Of a stretch of 64,000 bases of DNA, positions 2,845 to 42,264 are shown in pieces. Position 1 is the stretch's first letter. Each line of letters opens with the position of its first letter. The notes beneath the pieces are model-generated. The model saw nothing but the letters and a program-made list of their open reading frames with translations, was not told where the DNA came from and did not search any database. The stretch is taken from assembly GCF_003334405.1 (NCBI RefSeq), contig NZ_QOWM01000004.1. One strand, 5' to 3'. The DNA comes from Escherichia coli (lineage in GTDB: Bacteria; Pseudomonadota; Gammaproteobacteria; Enterobacterales; Enterobacteriaceae). The position numbers and the translations under genes were made by a program.

Positions 2845-4143
2845 ATGAAAGCGATCTTAATCCCATTTTTATCTCTTCTGATTCCGTTAACCCCGCAATC
2901 TGCATTCGCTCAGAGTGAGCCGGAGCTGAAGCTGGAAAGTGTGGTGATTGTCAGTCGTCATGGTGTGCGTGCTCCAACCAAGGCCACGCAACTGATGCAG
3001 GATGTCACCCCAGACGCATGGCCAACCTGGCCGGTAAAACTGGGTTGGCTGACACCGCGCGGTGGTGAGCTAATCGCCTATCTCGGACATTACCAACGCC
3101 AGCGTCTGGTAGCCGACGGATTGCTGGCGAAAAAGGGCTGCCCGCAGTCTGGTCAGGTCGCGATTATTGCTGATGTCGACGAGCGTACCCGTAAAACAGG
3201 CGAAGCCTTCGCCGCCGGGCTGGCACCTGACTGTGCAATAACCGTACATACCCAGGCAGATACGTCCAGTCCCGATCCGTTATTTAATCCTCTAAAAACT
3301 GGCGTTTGCCAACTGGATAACGCGAACGTGACTGACGCGATCCTCAGCAGGGCAGGAGGGTCAATTGCTGACTTTACCGGGCATCGGCAAACGGCGTTTC
3401 GCGAACTGGAACGGGTGCTTAATTTTCCGCAATCAAACTTGTGCCTTAAACGTGAGAAACAGGACGAAAGCTGTTCATTAACGCAGGCATTACCATCGGA
3501 ACTCAAGGTGAGCGCCGACAATGTCTCATTAACCGGTGCGGTAAGCCTCGCATCAATGCTGACGGAGATATTTCTCCTGCAACAAGCACAGGGAATGCCG
3601 GAGCCGGGGTGGGGAAGGATCACCGATTCACACCAGTGGAACACCTTGCTAAGTTTGCATAACGCGCAATTTTATTTGCTACAACGCACGCCAGAGGTTG
3701 CCCGCAGCCGCGCCACCCCGTTATTAGATTTGATCAAGACAGCGTTGACGCCCCATCCACCGCAAAAACAGGCGTATGGTGTGACATTACCCACTTCAGT
3801 GCTGTTTATCGCCGGACACGATACTAATCTGGCAAATCTCGGCGGCGCACTGGAGCTCAACTGGACGCTTCCCGGTCAGCCGGATAACACGCCGCCAGGT
3901 GGTGAACTGGTGTTTGAACGCTGGCGTCGGCTAAGCGATAACAGCCAGTGGATTCAGGTTTCGCTGGTCTTCCAGACTTTACAGCAGATGCGTGATAAAA
4001 CGCCGCTGTCATTAAATACGCCGCCCGGAGAGGTGAAACTGACCCTGGCAGGATGTGAAGAGCGAAATGCGCAGGGCATGTGTTCGTTGGCAGGTTTTAC
4101 GCAAATCGTGAATGAAGCACGCATACCGGCGTGCAGTTTGTAA
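2845..4143 (+). CDS. appA: Periplasmic pH 2.5 acid phosphatase / phytase (histidine acid phosphatase)
   Basis: Track ORF 2815..4143; start moved to internal ATG giving MKAILIPFLSLLIPLTPQSAFA signal peptide and 432 aa; RHGVRAP histidine-phosphatase motif present. Confidence 0.92.
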   Translation: MKAILIPFLSLLIPLTPQSAFAQSEPELKLESVVIVSRHGVRAPTKATQLMQDVTPDAWPTWPVKLGWLTPRGGELIAYLGHYQRQRLVADGLLAKKGCPQSGQVAIIADVDERTRKTGEAFAAGLAPDCAITVHTQADTSSPDPLFNPLKTGVCQLDNANVTDAILSRAGGSIADFTGHRQTAFRELERVLNFPQSNLCLKREKQDESCSLTQALPSELKVSADNVSLTGAVSLASMLTEIFLLQQAQGMPEPGWGRITDSHQWNTLLSLHNAQFYLLQRTPEVARSRATPLLDLIKTALTPHPPQKQAYGVTLPTSVLFIAGHDTNLANLGGALELNWTLPGQPDNTPPGGELVFERWRRLSDNSQWIQVSLVFQTLQQMRDKTPLSLNTPPGEVKLTLAGCEERNAQGMCSLAGFTQIVNEARIPACSL

Positions 4144-36370: not shown

Positions 36371-39300
36371 TTAACCTATAGTCATTAAGCTGGCGTTACC
36401 GCCAGCGGCAGCGGTATTCACACTCAGCGAACGCTCGATATACAGCCGTTCCAGAAGGATATTGCTTTCGCCACGGGCAAAACCCTGCACCGAAACAATT
36501 GTGCCATCCCGCGCGGCAACTGCTTCACACAATGCGCGAAGCTGATCCGAATCACCGTGGAAGATCACCGCATCAAACGGTTGAGCGGTTATATTTTCCG
36601 CTTTCGCCAGTTGAATACGTTCGCTGACTGCCGATGGCAATGCCTTCACTAACTGACGATGCAGCGCGTCATCCGGCCACAGTACCTGGCTGCCCACCGC
36701 CAGCACGGCGGCGAGCTGAGTCAGCGCATCCTGCTCATCATCGGCAATACACAACACGCGCTCACGCGGCAGCAGCGTCCAGGTGTTGCGTTCACCCGTC
36801 GGCCCCGGCAGCAATCGTTGTGTTCCTGCCTGCGCCAGCTCGCCATATTGCGTACATAACGCCTGCAATTCTGGACGATTTGCTGCCCATTCCCGCAGTG
36901 CATTTAGCGGCTGAGTCAATGCGGCTTTCAACTGCGCATCGACCGGATACTTTGCATCCTGACGCGCGAGCGTCACTGCCAGCGCACTTTCCGGGCGATT
37001 CGCCAGCAGACGGTAGAGATAGAGCGGACCGCCTGCTTTCGGCCCGGTACCGGACAACCCTTCGCCGCCGAACGGCTGCACACCAACCACTGCGCCCACC
37101 ATATTACGGTTAACATACAGGTTACCAACATGGGCCGAGCCAGTGACCTGGGCGATGGTTTCATCAATGCGCGTATGGACGCCAAGCGTCAGACCATAAC
37201 CGGAAGCGTTAATCTGCTCGATCAGCTCTGGTAGCTGGTTACGGTTGTAACGCACCACATGCAGCACCGGACCAAAGACCTCTTTTTGCAATTCGGCAAA
37301 GTCATCCAGTTCGATCAGCGTCGGGGCGACAAAGGTGCCGCTTTGCCATTCACGGGCATCTTCGCTGTTTTCCCGCACCGCCTGGAACACCGGACGGCCT
37401 TTGCTACGCATGGTCTGAATATGGCGCTCAATATTGGCTTTCGCTTCGCTATCAATCACTGGACCGATATCGGTGGTCAGGCGACCCGGATTACCTATCC
37501 GGCATTCGGCCATTGCGCCGCGCAGCATTTTCAACGTGTGGTCGGCAATCTCATCTTGCAGGCACAGCACGCGCAGCGCCGAACAACGCTGACCCGCACT
37601 GTCGAACGCCGAGGCCAGTACATCCACGACGACCTGTTCGGTCAGTGCTGAAGAATCGACAATCATCGCGTTCATGCCGCCGGTTTCAGCGATGAGCGGA
37701 ATAGGGCGACCCTGAGCGTCCAGGCGGCTGGCGATATTGCGCTGCAGTAACGTAGCGACTTCGGTTGAACCGGTAAACATCACCCCGCGCACGCGATCAT
37801 CACCCGTCAGTTGCGCGCCCACGGTTTCACCCCGACCTGGCAGCAATTGCACCACGCCTGGCGGTACACCCGCTTCCAGCAAAATGGCGATCCCTTGCGC
37901 GGCAATCAGCGGCGTTTGTTCTGCCGGTTTTGCCAGCACGCTGTTACCTGCCGCCAGTGCGGCGGCGATCTGCCCGGTGAAAATAGCCAGCGGGAAGTTC
38001 CACGGACTGATACACACCACAGGCCCTAATGGACGGTGGGTTTCGTTAGCGAAATCATCCCGCACCTGTCCGGCGTAGTAGTGGAGAAAATCGACCGCTT
38101 CGCGCACTTCGGCAATGGCGTTACTGAAGGTTTTTCCGGCCTCACGCACCAGAATACCAATCAGTTGCTGCATCTGGCTTTCCATCAGCACGGCAGCGCG
38201 GTGCAAAATCGCTGCGCGTTCAGCCGGAGGCGTGGCAAACCAGATTGGCGCGTTATTAACCGCACTTTCCAGCGCCTGTTCTACTTCACGCGGCGTGGCT
38301 TCACGCACATAGCCCACAATATCTTTCGGTTCCGCAGGGTTAATAACGGGCGACATCTCACCTGCCGCTACCGGTTGTTCCAGCATTGGCAAGGCCTGCC
38401 ATTTTTGCAGTGCACTATTGAGCAGGGCAGAGGAGAGCGAGGCCAGGCGGTGTTCGTTAGCGAGATCCAGCCCTGCCGAGTTGTCGCGCCCGTGACCGTA
38501 AAGATCGCGCGGCAGGGGAATTTTCGGATGCGGTAATCCAGTTTGCCCTTCCTGTTGCGCCAGTTTTTCTACAGCAGTGACCGGATCGGCGACCAGTTCA
38601 TCCAGTGGCAAAGAGGTGTCGGCAATACGGTTAACAAACGAGGTGTTAGCACCGTTTTCCAGCAGGCGACGCACCAGATACGCCAACAGCGTTTCATGTG
38701 TGCCAACCGGAGCATAAATACGACACGGACGGTTAAGTTTGCCGTCGGCAACTTTCCCGGTGACCTGCTCATACAGTGGCTCGCCCATACCATGCAGGCA
38801 CTGGAACTCGTACTGACCCGGGTAGTAGTTCTGCCCCGCCAGTTGATAAATCGCCGCCAGCGTATGGGCGTTGTGCGTCGCGAACTGCGGGTAGATTAGA
38901 TTCGGCACCGCCAGCAGCTTTTTCGCACAGGCGAGATAAGAAACGTCGGTATACACCTTGCGGGTATAAACCGGATAACCTTCAAGGCCGTCCATCTGCG
39001 CACGCTTAATTTCACTATCCCAGTACGCGCCTTTCACCAGGCGAATCATCAGACGGCGACGGCTGCGGGTGGCGAGATCAATCAGGTAATCGATCACCAA
39101 CGGGCAGCGTTTTTGATAAGCCTGAATAACAAAACCGATGCCGTTCCAGCCTGCCAGTTCCGGCTCGAAACAGAGTTTTTCCAGCAGATCGAGGGAGATC
39201 TCCAGGCGATCGGACTCTTCGGCGTCAATGTTGATACCAATATCGTACTGACGCGCCAGCAGGGTGAGTGATTTCAGACGCGGGTAAAGCTCTTCCATTA

Positions 39301-40333
39301 CCCGGTCATACTGGGCGCGGCTATAACGCGGATGCAGCGCCGACAGTTTGATTGAAATGCCCGGCCCTTCATAGATGCCACGACCGTTAGACGCTTTACC
39401 GATGGCGTGAATCGCCTGCTGATAGGAAACCATATACGCCTGTGCATCTGCGGCGGTCAGCGCGGCTTCGCCCAGCATATCGTAAGAGTAACGGAAACCT
39501 TTCTCTTCCAGCTTGCGGGCATTGGCTAACGCTTCCGCGATGGTTTCGCCAGTGACGAACTGCTCACCCATCAGGCGCATCGCCATATCCACACCTTTGC
39601 GGATCAGCGGTTCACCGCTTTTACCGATAATGCGGTTCAGCGAGCGGGAGAGGCTGGCTTCGTTATGGGTGGAAACCAGTTTGCCAGTAAACAGCAGCCC
39701 CCAGGTGGCGGCATTAACAAACAGTGACGGGCTACGACCAATGTGTGACTGCCAGTTACCGTTGCTGATTTTGTCGCGAATTAACGCGTCGCGGGTGGCT
39801 TTGTCGGGAATACGCAACAACGCTTCCGCCAGACACATCAGCGCCACGCCTTCCTGCGATGACAGCGAAAACTCCTGCAATAACCCCTGGACCATACCTG
39901 CGCGACCACTGGCATTTTTTTGATTACGCAGTTTATCGGCCAGCTGATACGCCAGTTTGTGCGCCTGTTCAGCAACTGGCTGCGGCAGGCGGGCTTGTTC
40001 CAGCAGCATAGAAACCGCTTCGGTTTCCGGGCGGCGATAGGCCGCGGTGATCGCGGCGCGGGAAACCGACTGGGGCAATATTTGCTCGGCAAAGTCGAGG
40101 AATGGCTGGTGTGGTTCCTCTGCCGGAGTCGGTGCTTCATCGCTCTCATTGGCCGCGCCAGAAAGCAGCGCAGGTAGCTCCGGCAGAGTATCGCTGTTTT
40201 CCAGTTGTTCGAGATAAGAAAAAATCGCCTGCTTAATTAACCAGTGTGGTGTGCGATCGATACGTGTCGCGGCAGACTTAATACGCTCACGCGTCGCGTC
40301 GTCCAGCTTAACCCCCATGGTGGTGGTTCCCAT
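36371..40333 (-). CDS. putA: Bifunctional proline dehydrogenase / P5C dehydrogenase and transcriptional repressor
   Basis: Track ORF 36371..40399; ATG at 40333 gives 1320 aa MGTTTMGVKLDDATRERIKSAA (ribbon-helix-helix N-terminus). Confidence 0.95.
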   Translation of the reverse strand: MGTTTMGVKLDDATRERIKSAATRIDRTPHWLIKQAIFSYLEQLENSDTLPELPALLSGAANESDEAPTPAEEPHQPFLDFAEQILPQSVSRAAITAAYRRPETEAVSMLLEQARLPQPVAEQAHKLAYQLADKLRNQKNASGRAGMVQGLLQEFSLSSQEGVALMCLAEALLRIPDKATRDALIRDKISNGNWQSHIGRSPSLFVNAATWGLLFTGKLVSTHNEASLSRSLNRIIGKSGEPLIRKGVDMAMRLMGEQFVTGETIAEALANARKLEEKGFRYSYDMLGEAALTAADAQAYMVSYQQAIHAIGKASNGRGIYEGPGISIKLSALHPRYSRAQYDRVMEELYPRLKSLTLLARQYDIGINIDAEESDRLEISLDLLEKLCFEPELAGWNGIGFVIQAYQKRCPLVIDYLIDLATRSRRRLMIRLVKGAYWDSEIKRAQMDGLEGYPVYTRKVYTDVSYLACAKKLLAVPNLIYPQFATHNAHTLAAIYQLAGQNYYPGQYEFQCLHGMGEPLYEQVTGKVADGKLNRPCRIYAPVGTHETLLAYLVRRLLENGANTSFVNRIADTSLPLDELVADPVTAVEKLAQQEGQTGLPHPKIPLPRDLYGHGRDNSAGLDLANEHRLASLSSALLNSALQKWQALPMLEQPVAAGEMSPVINPAEPKDIVGYVREATPREVEQALESAVNNAPIWFATPPAERAAILHRAAVLMESQMQQLIGILVREAGKTFSNAIAEVREAVDFLHYYAGQVRDDFANETHRPLGPVVCISPWNFPLAIFTGQIAAALAAGNSVLAKPAEQTPLIAAQGIAILLEAGVPPGVVQLLPGRGETVGAQLTGDDRVRGVMFTGSTEVATLLQRNIASRLDAQGRPIPLIAETGGMNAMIVDSSALTEQVVVDVLASAFDSAGQRCSALRVLCLQDEIADHTLKMLRGAMAECRIGNPGRLTTDIGPVIDSEAKANIERHIQTMRSKGRPVFQAVRENSEDAREWQSGTFVAPTLIELDDFAELQKEVFGPVLHVVRYNRNQLPELIEQINASGYGLTLGVHTRIDETIAQVTGSAHVGNLYVNRNMVGAVVGVQPFGGEGLSGTGPKAGGPLYLYRLLANRPESALAVTLARQDAKYPVDAQLKAALTQPLNALREWAANRPELQALCTQYGELAQAGTQRLLPGPTGERNTWTLLPRERVLCIADDEQDALTQLAAVLAVGSQVLWPDDALHRQLVKALPSAVSERIQLAKAENITAQPFDAVIFHGDSDQLRALCEAVAARDGTIVSVQGFARGESNILLERLYIERSLSVNTAAAGGNASLMTIG

Positions 40334-40755
40334 GCCATTACTCCTGTTGTTCAGAAAGGTGCAACTTAACGTTATCGTGAAATATCCATGATGTTGCAAC
40401 TTTGTGCAACCATGTTAAATGTGACATGCGTAGCAAGCTTAAAAATGAATGAAATGTTAATAAAAGAAATCGATATGACAGGGATTAAAAAAATAACTCA
40501 GACTTTTTCTCTGCGGCAGTTAACATTTTTGAAAGGTGCAACCGCAAAAAATGTGAGAGAGTGCAACCTGATGAAAAATAGTGTCGCTGAGCACTAAAAT
40601 TTAATGTAAATGGTGTGTTAAATCGATTGTGAATAACCAGCGCTTCCGGCAGGATACGGTCGCCCTGGTAAAACATAAACTCTGTTACCCCGTTCCGGTG
40701 GCAGATATAACGGCAAGTTTCGACATTGCCGATAATAATTTTTTGGAGACTTTAG
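40334..40755. promoter_or_regulatory. put control region with divergent putA and putP promoters and five GTTGCA-type PutA operator motifs
   Basis: ggtgcaac 40358-40365, gttgcaac 40393-40400, gtgcaac 40404-40410, ggtgcaacc 40535-40543, gtgcaac 40561-40567; AT-rich 422-bp intergenic region. Confidence 0.7.

Positions 40756-42264
<1,509 letters not shown>

What the first reader, a model, noticed from the sequence alone, without database searches (positions are those of the whole stretch)
40334..40755. put control region: five GTTGCA-type PutA operator motifs between divergent putA and putP
Seen directly: five copies of the (G)GTGCAAC / GTTGCAAC motif at 40358, 40393, 40404, 40535 and 40561 in the 422-bp AT-rich intergenic region. 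This agrees with the known autoregulatory PutA operator count and indicates the regulatory region is intact.
Basis: partly seen in the sequence, partly recalled or inferred. Interest (0 to 1): 0.15.

Follow-up and report, generated by a model that had tools for sequence, protein, structure and literature searches.

The report
Known PutA operators, E. coli put region
This is the already characterised control region between the E. coli proline-utilisation genes putA and putP, base-for-base identical to strain K-12, so the finding is correct but ordinary.

Summary
Window 40334-40755 is the 422-bp gap between putA (minus strand) and putP (plus strand). It is 38% G+C and 422/422 identical to E. coli K-12 MG1655.

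GTTGCA occurs at the five stated places (40358, 40393, 40404, 40535, 40561). Chance predicts about 0.3-0.4 hits here, and none of 20,000 shuffles reached the observed six strand hits.

The interpretation as PutA operators is supported:
- The adjacent PutA has an N-terminal DNA-binding domain identical to the crystallised one (PDB 2gpe, 2rbf).
- The 40535-40544 site equals the published co-crystal consensus cGGTTGCACc.
- GTGCAACC and GTTGCAAC are the most conserved 8-mers of this gap in 110 Enterobacterales species.

Some nuances emerged:
- Only four sites form the conserved core. The site nearest putA (40358-65) was seen only in E. coli.
- The 40393/40404 pair sits on the putA promoter (-35 and spacer) and overlaps a published predicted ArcA site under a ChIP peak.
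- I could not read the primary paper (Zhou 2008), so the count of five and the operator numbering rest on my recollection.

In passing I found a covarying RNA hairpin in the putP leader (40682-40704), next to a published RNA 3' end.

Verdict: already known, low interest.

The parts
36371..40333 (-). putA coding sequence (1320 aa). It encodes the trifunctional repressor/proline dehydrogenase/P5C dehydrogenase. The ribbon-helix-helix DNA-binding domain is residues 1-52.
   Evidence: ORF list, annotation of identical DNA in EcN and K-12, 1319/1320 identity to K-12 PutA, N-terminus identical to PDB 2gpe/2rbf.
40334..40755 (.). The put control region: the 422-bp gap between divergent putA and putP, 38.4% G+C.
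   Evidence: It is 100% identical to K-12 MG1655 1078883-1079304 and present in 5421 of 5426 complete E. coli genomes.
40358..40365 (-). GTTGCA site nearest putA (GGTGCAAC on +; aaGTTGCAcc on -). It lies about +12 to +17 of the inferred putA transcript. It is probably 'operator 5' of the literature; that numbering is my inference. Seen only in E. coli.
   Evidence: Among 110 species it occurs only in the two E. coli loci, and E. albertii has GGTATAGC there. It is intact in every E. coli variant examined.
40393..40400 (.). Palindromic site GTTGCAAC, with GTTGCA on both strands. It lies in the spacer of the inferred putA promoter (about -17 to -24).
   Evidence: GTTGCAAC is present in 110/110 species and invariant in the 13-genus alignment.
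40404..40410 (-). GTTGCA site (GTGCAAC on +; tgGTTGCAca on -), 11 bp centre-to-centre from the palindromic site. It contains the inferred putA -35 hexamer TTGCAC.
   Evidence: The block ATGTTGCAACTTTGTGCAACC is invariant in 13 genera. The -35 assignment is inferred from the transcription start derived from Park et al. 2013.
40535..40544 (-). GTTGCA site whose minus strand reads CGGTTGCACC. This is the operator co-crystallised with PutA52 ('operator 2').
   Evidence: PMC4655474 lists PutA/2rbf as cGGTTGCACc, and none of the other four sites has these flanks. GGTGCAACC is invariant in 13 genera.
40561..40567 (-). GTTGCA site (GTGCAAC on +; agGTTGCAct on -), 25 bp from the previous site. It is probably 'operator 1' (my inference).
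   Evidence: AGTGCAACCT is invariant in 13 genera.
40376..40387 (-). Inferred putA transcription start (~40376) and -10 hexamer GATATT (40387 down to 40382).
   Evidence: Park et al. 2013 supplement places the ArcA site 1078163-1078193 (U00096.2) at -45 to -15 of the putA start. Converted with window = x - 1037772. AATATC is invariant in 13 genera.
40391..40421 (+). Published predicted ArcA-P site (three direct repeats), ATGTTGCAACTTTGTGCAACCATGTTAAATG. It overlaps the two promoter-proximal PutA sites.
   Evidence: PMC3798270 supplement: site sequence, ChIP peak, and putA 30.8-fold up in an arcA mutant. The sequence matches the window.
40420..40435 (+). CRP-like site TGTGACATGCGTAGCA, matching 8 of 10 consensus positions. 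Its right half is GTAGCA in E. coli and GTTGCA in Salmonella, E. albertii and Kluyvera.
   Evidence: Consensus scan and alignment. Binding was not tested.
40571..40597 (+). ymdG small ORF (8 aa, MKNSVAEH, in the K-12 annotation). In-frame longer versions start at 40475 (40 aa, epitope-tagged in the literature) and at 40388 (69 aa, the PGAP 'hypothetical protein'). The longer versions read through the 40535 and 40561 sites.
   Evidence: PMC6001520 gives the 40-aa ORF at 1079024-1079146. It is not conserved outside Escherichia in the alignment.
40604..40636 (+). Published ArcA-P site at putP P1, ATGTAAATGGTGTGTTAAATCGATTGTGAATAA. The repeats TGTAAA/TGTTAA/TGTGAA are spaced 11 and 12 bp apart. 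The inferred putP P1 start is ~40619.
   Evidence: PMC3798270 text and supplement: DNase footprint at -15 to +9, with the third repeat at 12-bp spacing not protected. The block is conserved in 13 genera.
40641..40663 (+). Nearly invariant block GCTTCCGGCAGGATACGGTCGCC in the putP leader. Function unexplained.
   Evidence: Alignment. CAGGATAC occurs in 82/110 species.
40682..40704 (+). Conserved RNA hairpin in the putP 5' leader. The stem is CUGUUACC/GGUGGCAG and the 7-nt loop is CCGUUCC.
   Evidence: GTTCCGG occurs in 92/110 species. On 77 distinct sequences 83% of cells pair; the covariation score is 0.566 against 0.304 in shuffles (0/500 reach it) and at most 0.21 for slid partners. RNAalifold recovers it. 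A published Term-seq 3' end at 1079260 equals window 40711, 7 nt after the stem.
40756..42264 (+). putP coding sequence (502 aa, Na+/proline symporter).

Best explanation
The five motifs are the operator sites of the E. coli put regulon. PutA, encoded next door, is both an enzyme and a repressor. When proline is scarce, its N-terminal ribbon-helix-helix dimer inserts a two-stranded beta-sheet into the major groove at GTTGCA plus a few flanking bases.

The two tandem sites at 40393-40410 are one helical turn apart. They lie on the -35 hexamer and spacer of the putA promoter, and the 40358-65 site lies just inside the transcribed leader. Occupancy of these three sites blocks putA transcription. 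The two sites at 40535-44 and 40561-67 lie about 80 and 55 bp upstream of putP P1 and repress putP.

When proline is present, PutA's flavin is reduced, the protein moves to the membrane and both genes are derepressed. A second, independent layer acts on the same DNA: ArcA-P binds sites overlapping the putA-proximal operators and the putP P1 start.

Shown here: the motifs, their statistical enrichment, their identity to K-12 DNA, their conservation, and the intact cognate DNA-binding domain.
Taken from literature: binding, repression, the redox switch and the ArcA sites.
Inferred: promoter positions and operator numbering.
For: - Exact motifs at the stated places.
- Enrichment: 6 hits against 0.26-0.42 expected, with 0 of 20,000 shuffles reaching 6.
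- 422/422 identity to the K-12 put control region.
- PutA 1319/1320 identical to K-12, and residues 1-52 identical to PDB 2gpe/2rbf.
- Window 40535-40544 equals the 2rbf consensus cGGTTGCACc listed in PMC4655474.
- Genomic SELEX found PutA bound only to the putA/putP spacer (PMC8249747).
- In 110 Enterobacterales species with divergent putA-putP, every intergenic region holds 2-6 GTTGCA places (median 4), mostly at near-constant offsets.
- The most widespread 8-mers there are GTGCAACC and GTTGCAAC, each in 110/110.
- These motifs are invariant islands in a 13-genus alignment while their surroundings diverge.
- None of 28 variable columns among six E. coli sequences (the window and five variants) falls in a hexamer.
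- Promoter geometry derived from Park et al. 2013 puts the 40404-10 site on the -35 hexamer.
Against: - No binding experiment can be run here, and the primary paper (Zhou et al. 2008) could not be read. The count of five, the statement that three sites act on putA and two on putP, and the operator numbering rest on my recollection.
- The 40358-65 site is not conserved outside E. coli, so conservation gives no independent support for that one.
- The 40393-40410 pair is also part of a published predicted ArcA site under a ChIP peak. Conservation there cannot be credited to PutA alone.
- The two putP-side sites do not overlap the inferred P1 core promoter, so how they repress putP is not explained by simple occlusion.
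- The absence of E. coli polymorphisms in the hexamers is not significant on its own: about 2 were expected, P about 0.1.
Confidence: 0.95

Rival explanations
1. The promoter-proximal motifs (40391-40421) are primarily ArcA-P direct repeats, and their conservation reflects anaerobic repression of putA rather than PutA autoregulation.
For: The Park et al. 2013 supplement lists ATGTTGCAACTTTGTGCAACCATGTTAAATG as a three-repeat ArcA site under a ChIP peak. putA is 30.8-fold derepressed in an arcA mutant.
Against: In that table the middle repeat scores -0.1 bits and the first only 7 bits, so the strongest ArcA element is ATGTTAAATG, outside the GTTGCA motifs. ArcA does not explain the identical GGTTGCAC core at 40535 and 40561. 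The co-crystal sequence and the SELEX result point to PutA. The two readings are compatible, since two regulators can share overlapping sites.
Confidence: 0.25
2. Only four sites are functional operators. The 40358-65 copy is a recent, possibly neutral, chance match that arose in the E. coli lineage.
For: It is present only in the two E. coli loci among 110 species, and E. albertii has GGTATAGC at the aligned position. The four other sites are conserved from Escherichia to Pantoea and Serratia.
Against: The site is intact in all E. coli variants examined, including the most divergent ones sampled. It shares the flank GTTGCACC with operator 2. As I recall, Zhou et al. 2008 found three sites needed for putA repression, which would include this one. 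One extra chance hit in 422 bp is not rare (about 0.3-0.4 expected), so statistics alone cannot decide.
Confidence: 0.15
3. The motifs belong to another regulator with a similar half-site, for example CytR (octamer GTTGCATT), or are chance products of an A+T-rich spacer.
For: RegulonDB describes the CytR site as repeats of GTTGCATT, which shares the GTTGCA core (PMC3013702).
Against: None of the five sites continues with TT; they read GTTGCAcc, GTTGCAac, GTTGCAca, GTTGCAcc and GTTGCAct. Chance is excluded by the shuffles and by conservation in 110 species.
Confidence: 0.02

Closest known systems
E. coli K-12 put control region with PutA operators (Zhou et al. 2008, J Mol Biol 381:174; PDB 2rbf)
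   Same: The sequence is identical over all 422 bp. The same five GTTGCA places are present. The repressor DNA-binding domain is identical. The 40535-44 site equals the co-crystal consensus.
   Different: Nothing in the control region differs. The window is not MG1655 itself: there are 2 mismatches in the 7001 bp compared, one giving PutA M946I.
Put control regions of other Enterobacterales (Salmonella, Citrobacter, Klebsiella, Kluyvera, Pantoea, Serratia and others)
   Same: All have divergent putA-putP with a 388-720-bp spacer. Most share a core of GTTGCAAC plus an adjacent GTTGCA about 60-75 bp from the putA start, with one or two further sites about 130-160 bp beyond; 81 of 110 hold the full four-site core.
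   Different: They lack the E. coli site next to the putA start. Several carry a GTTGCA at about +97 instead, where E. coli has GTAGCA at 40428-33.
Tandem-operator ribbon-helix-helix repressors (Arc, MetJ, CopG, type II antitoxins)
   Same: They use short operator repeats bound by beta-sheet insertion. The adjacent sites here are one helical turn apart (11 bp between 40396.5 and 40407.5). PutA residues 6-50 also match CopG-family regulators in the PDB.
   Different: In PutA the domain is fused to a 1320-residue enzyme, and the effector signal is flavin reduction and membrane binding rather than a small co-repressor (established knowledge, not tested here).

Membership tests
PutA operator set of the E. 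coli put control region | GTTGCA core motif present at five places in the spacer | tested here: met
   40360-65, 40393-400 (palindrome), 40405-10, 40537-42 and 40562-67.
PutA operator set of the E. coli put control region | Located between divergently transcribed putA and putP | tested here: met
   ORFs and annotation of identical DNA.
PutA operator set of the E. coli put control region | Sequence identity with the characterised K-12 control DNA | tested here: met
   422/422 intergenic bases, and 462/462 including flanks.
PutA operator set of the E. coli put control region | Cognate repressor with an intact ribbon-helix-helix domain encoded at the locus | tested here: met
   Residues 1-52 are identical to PDB 2gpe/2rbf. 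Full-length identity is 1319/1320.
PutA operator set of the E. coli put control region | One site matches the operator solved in complex with PutA52 | tested here: met
   cGGTTGCACc (PMC4655474) is the reverse complement of window 40535-40544. No other site has these flanks.
PutA operator set of the E. coli put control region | Each site is individually bound by PutA and needed for repression | not testable with these tools
   This needs gel shift, footprinting or reporter assays. Readable literature shows only that PutA binds this spacer as a whole (PMC8249747).
PutA operator set of the E. coli put control region | Positions agree with the published operator map | tested here: inconclusive
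   Identity to K-12 makes agreement near certain, but the published coordinates could not be read. Only operator 2 could be matched, through a secondary source.
Conserved enterobacterial PutA operators | Motif conserved at the aligned position in other genera | tested here: inconclusive
   Four of the five sites are conserved, being invariant in 13 genera with the core present in most of 110 species. The 40358-65 site is found only in E. coli.
ArcA-P direct-repeat sites | TGTTA-like repeats at about 11-bp spacing, under a ChIP peak or DNase footprint | tested here: met
   The sequences in the Park et al. 2013 supplement match window 40391-40421 and 40604-40636 exactly. The 11- and 12-bp spacing I read at the putP site agrees with their text. 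The binding itself is their result, not mine.

The most novel reading that the evidence does not exclude
The put control region may hold more than its DNA operators.

First, the putP leader may carry an undescribed, selectively maintained RNA hairpin (40682-40704, loop CCGUUCC) that adds a post-transcriptional layer to proline uptake. It sits beside a nearly invariant block (40641-63).

Second, the operator set may be turning over. A four-site core is ancestral to Enterobacterales. E. coli gained a site inside the putA leader, while the GTTGCA at +97 kept by Salmonella, E. albertii and Kluyvera reads GTAGCA in E. coli.
Probability: 0.4. Interest if true: 0.35.

Novelty: already known. Interest (0 to 1): 0.1.

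Why it matters
The finding itself adds nothing new. It re-identifies a textbook autoregulatory region in a K-12-like E. coli and shows that it is intact. Its use is as a positive control, since a reader working from raw sequence located all five operators correctly.

Two by-products may be modestly useful to people who study proline utilisation:
- A 110-species view suggests that only four operators are ancestral and that the site nearest putA is specific to E. coli.
- There is covariation evidence for a structured element in the putP 5' leader that coincides with a catalogued RNA 3' end.

Tried and rejected
1. Reading the primary literature. Zhou et al. 2008 (PubMed id and PMC2665032), Tanner 2008, Singh & Tanner 2012, Larson 2006, Gu 2004 and a 2017 review are not held. 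Full-text searches for PutA plus GTTGCA found no paper that states the five operators. One search was wasted on 'five puta...' matching 'five putative'. PMC3413123 does not mention PutA.

2. The consensus promoter scan found one plus-strand candidate (ATGAAA-18-TAAAAT, 40571-40600) and nothing for putA. That candidate is not conserved in other genera. I used transcription starts derived from Park et al. 2013 instead.

3. Rfam gave no match at or near a gathering score. A 15.5-bit match to RF02780 (PutA 5' UTR thermometer) at 40304-40367(-) reflects a shared Shine-Dalgarno sequence and shared first codons. Its predicted pairs are mostly broken, so I do not call it a thermometer.

4. A pseudoknot between the hairpin loop CCGUUCC and GGA(U)ACGG at 40651-58 would give 7 pairs with one bulge. 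I rejected it as unsupported, because divergent genera change the block without any compensating change in the loop.

5. CytR half-sites were rejected because the flanks are wrong.

6. In one search the E. albertii row was given with wrong coordinates and should be ignored.

Full report
**What is there.** Window 40334-40755 lies between the start of a 1320-codon minus-strand ORF (putA, 36371-40333) and a 502-codon plus-strand ORF (putP, 40756-42264). The same DNA is annotated that way in E. coli Nissle-type and K-12 records. The gap is 422 bp and 38.4% G+C, against 50.4% for the window.

An exact search finds GTTGCA at five places:
- 40360-65 (-)
- 40393-98 (+) overlapping 40395-400 (-), which together form the palindrome GTTGCAAC
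- 40405-10 (-)
- 40537-42 (-)
- 40562-67 (-)

**Is it more than chance?** The rest of the window carries GTTGCA at 6.1e-4 per base, which predicts 0.26 hits in 422 bp. The observed number is 6 strand hits at 5 places (Poisson P = 3e-7). In 20,000 dinucleotide-preserving shuffles of the region the mean was 0.42, none reached 6 and two reached 5. The 64-kb window as a whole is not enriched.

**Identity with the characterised region.** The region occurs in 5421 of 5426 complete E. coli genomes, and 4992 of them are at least 99% identical. Over the 7001 bp compared, the window differs from MG1655 at two positions. One of them gives PutA M946I. The strain is therefore K-12-like but not MG1655.

**Evidence that these are PutA operators.**
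- The first 52 residues of the window's PutA are identical to the crystallised ribbon-helix-helix domain (PDB 2gpe, 2rbf).
- A readable paper tabulates the PutA-DNA complex 2rbf with the consensus cGGTTGCACc (PMC4655474). This is the reverse complement of window 40535-40544, and none of the other four sites has those flanks. That site is therefore the co-crystallised operator.
- Genomic SELEX with purified PutA gave a single peak, in the putA/putP spacer (PMC8249747).
- The five-operator count, the GTTGCA consensus, and the statement that three sites serve putA and two serve putP come from Zhou et al. 2008. That paper is cited by every readable source but is not held here, so I give those points from memory. 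As I recall the abstract, the sites were defined by gel shift and crystallography rather than footprinting.

**Independent comparative test.** A DNA-pattern scan of one genome per species, using the conserved first codons of putA, returned 120 loci. In 110 of them putP lies divergently 388-720 bp away.
- Every one of these spacers holds GTTGCA at 2 to 6 places. The distribution is 2:1, 3:18, 4:61, 5:21 and 6:9.
- The sites sit at nearly constant offsets: the palindrome at about +60 from the putA start, a second site 10-12 bp further, and two more at about +205 and +230.
- Without any prior motif, the 8-mers found in the most spacers are GTGCAACC (110/110, 272 occurrences) and GTTGCAAC (110/110).
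- In a 13-genus alignment, ATGTTGCAACTTTGTGCAACC, GGTGCAACC and AGTGCAACCT are invariant islands in otherwise diverged sequence.
- Among six E. coli sequences (the window and five variants), none of 28 variable columns falls in a hexamer. About two were expected, so this alone is weak.

**A nuance on the fifth site.** The site nearest putA (40358-65) occurs only in the two E. coli loci of the 110. E. albertii has GGTATAGC at the aligned position, and Salmonella, Citrobacter and Klebsiella have unrelated sequence. Within E. coli it is intact in all variants I examined. The common polymorphism is A/T at 40353, outside the site. Conversely, E. albertii, Salmonella, Kluyvera, Mangrovibacter and some Pantoea carry GTTGCA at about +97, where E. 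coli reads GTAGCA (40428-33). That position is also the right half of a CRP-like site (TGTGACATGCGTAGCA, 8 of 10 consensus positions), so its meaning is ambiguous.

**Geometry and mechanism.** The Park et al. 2013 supplement (PMC3798270) gives positions in U00096.2 coordinates. I converted them to window positions by subtracting 1,037,772 and checked the conversion against the printed sequences.
- The ArcA site ATGTTGCAACTTTGTGCAACCATGTTAAATG (window 40391-40421) lies at -45 to -15 of the putA start.
- That places the putA start near 40376, the -10 hexamer GATATT at 40387-40382 (AATATC is invariant in 13 genera), and the -35 hexamer TTGCAC at 40410-40405.
- The 40404-10 operator therefore contains the -35 hexamer. 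The palindromic operator fills the spacer, 11 bp (one helical turn) away. The E. coli-specific site lies at about +12 to +17.
- Repression of putA by promoter occlusion follows naturally from this arrangement.
- The same supplement and text place the ArcA-P footprint at putP P1 (window 40604-40636) at -15 to +9, so the P1 start is near 40619.
- The repeats I read as TGTAAA/TGTTAA/TGTGAA, spaced 11 and 12 bp, match their remark that the third repeat at 12-bp spacing is not protected.
- The two putP-side operators then lie about 55 and 80 bp upstream of P1, outside its core promoter. How they repress putP is not explained by what I could compute.
- The proline/flavin/membrane switch that releases PutA from DNA is established knowledge and is summarised.

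**Rivals.**
- The promoter-proximal pair is also part of a published predicted ArcA site under a ChIP peak, and putA is 30.8-fold derepressed in an arcA mutant. This complements the PutA reading rather than replacing it. The strongest ArcA repeat lies outside the GTTGCA motifs, and ArcA does not account for the distal pair.
- CytR (octamer GTTGCATT) does not fit the flanks.
- The fifth site could be a neutral recent copy. I give that 0.15.

**Seen in passing inside the same coordinates.**
- The putP-proximal half holds a nearly invariant block, GCTTCCGGCAGGATACGGTCGCC (40641-63).
- It also holds a hairpin at 40682-40704, with stem CTGTTACC/GGTGGCAG and loop CCGTTCC. The loop is conserved (GTTCCGG in 92/110 species) while the stem covaries.
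- On 77 distinct sequences, 83% of cells pair. Six of eight pairs show changes on both sides. The covariation score is 0.566 against 0.304 in shuffles (0/500 reach it) and at most 0.21 when partners are slid.
- Frequent U-G pairs fit the plus (putP mRNA) strand and would be C-A mismatches on the other strand. Folding is more stable on the plus strand in 49 cases and on the minus strand in 28.
- RNAalifold recovers the hairpin in 25 genera. A second, more variable hairpin follows at 40711-40731.
- Term-seq data of Adams et al. list an RNA 3' end at 1079260, 45 nt upstream of putP. It is not Rho-dependent, has a low intrinsic-terminator score, and is flagged as the uORF pair ymdG-putP. That position is window 40711, seven bases after the stem.
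- No Rfam family matches.
- ymdG (8 aa at 40571-97, with in-frame 40- and 69-codon versions) reads through two operators and is not conserved beyond Escherichia.

**Verdict.** The feature is already known and intact, so interest is low. The comparative result on the fifth site and the leader hairpin are minor by-products that someone working on put regulation could test.

Noticed in passing
window 40682-40704 (+), with a Term-seq 3' end at 40711: Covarying RNA hairpin in the putP 5' leader, with stem CUGUUACC/GGUGGCAG and conserved loop CCGUUCC. It is present in 92 of 110 Enterobacterales species. A published RNA 3' end (K-12 1079260) lies 7 nt after it. There is no Rfam match, and I found no description of it in the readable literature.
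   Followed up: partly
window 40641-40663 (+): Nearly invariant block GCTTCCGGCAGGATACGGTCGCC in the putP leader. It shares TTCCGG(C/T)(A/G)G with the hairpin region 51 bp downstream. Its function is unexplained, and pairing with the hairpin loop is not supported by covariation.
   Followed up: partly
window 40711-40731 (+): Second leader hairpin, CGGCAA..TTGCCG in E. coli. Compensatory changes are visible by eye (Salmonella GGCAC/GTGCC, Klebsiella CGACA/TGTCG), and it is deleted in several genera. The pairs were not counted formally.
   Followed up: no
window 40358-40365, compared with L005 (E. albertii), L047 and L093 (Salmonella) and others: The PutA site nearest putA is found only in E. 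coli among 110 species. Several other genera instead have GTTGCA at about +97, where E. coli has GTAGCA (40428-33), overlapping a CRP-like site.
   Followed up: yes
window 40388-40597 (+): Three nested in-frame ORFs end at 40597: 69 aa (the PGAP 'hypothetical protein' in most E. coli records), 40 aa (the epitope-tagged YmdG of VanOrsdel 2018) and 8 aa (the current K-12 ymdG). They run through the PutA operators and are not conserved outside Escherichia.
   Followed up: partly
window 40304-40367 (-): Sub-threshold Rfam match (15.5 bits against a 51-bit gathering score) to RF02780, PutA 5' UTR thermometer. It is explained by a shared Shine-Dalgarno sequence and shared first codons. The predicted pairs are mostly not formed in E. 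coli.
   Followed up: yes
L126 (E. coli EC22, NZ_CM169479.1) 3153-3865: In this strain only the first 152 bp of the put spacer (window-equivalent 40334-40485) match. An IS1 transposase gene follows, and pgaB/pgaA take the place of putP. The putP-side operators and putP are therefore missing at this locus.
   Followed up: no
window 61372-61733: Four GTTGCA hits fall within 360 bp, inside and next to a ycdZ-like membrane-protein ORF. The expectation is about 0.2, which is borderline after allowing for the number of windows. SELEX reports no PutA peak outside the put spacer, so this is probably chance.
   Followed up: no
window 35414 and 37496: These are the only two differences from K-12 MG1655 in the 7001 bp compared. 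37496 gives PutA M946I. The window therefore comes from a very close K-12 relative rather than MG1655 itself. It diverges from the Nissle-type record downstream of 42259.
   Followed up: partly
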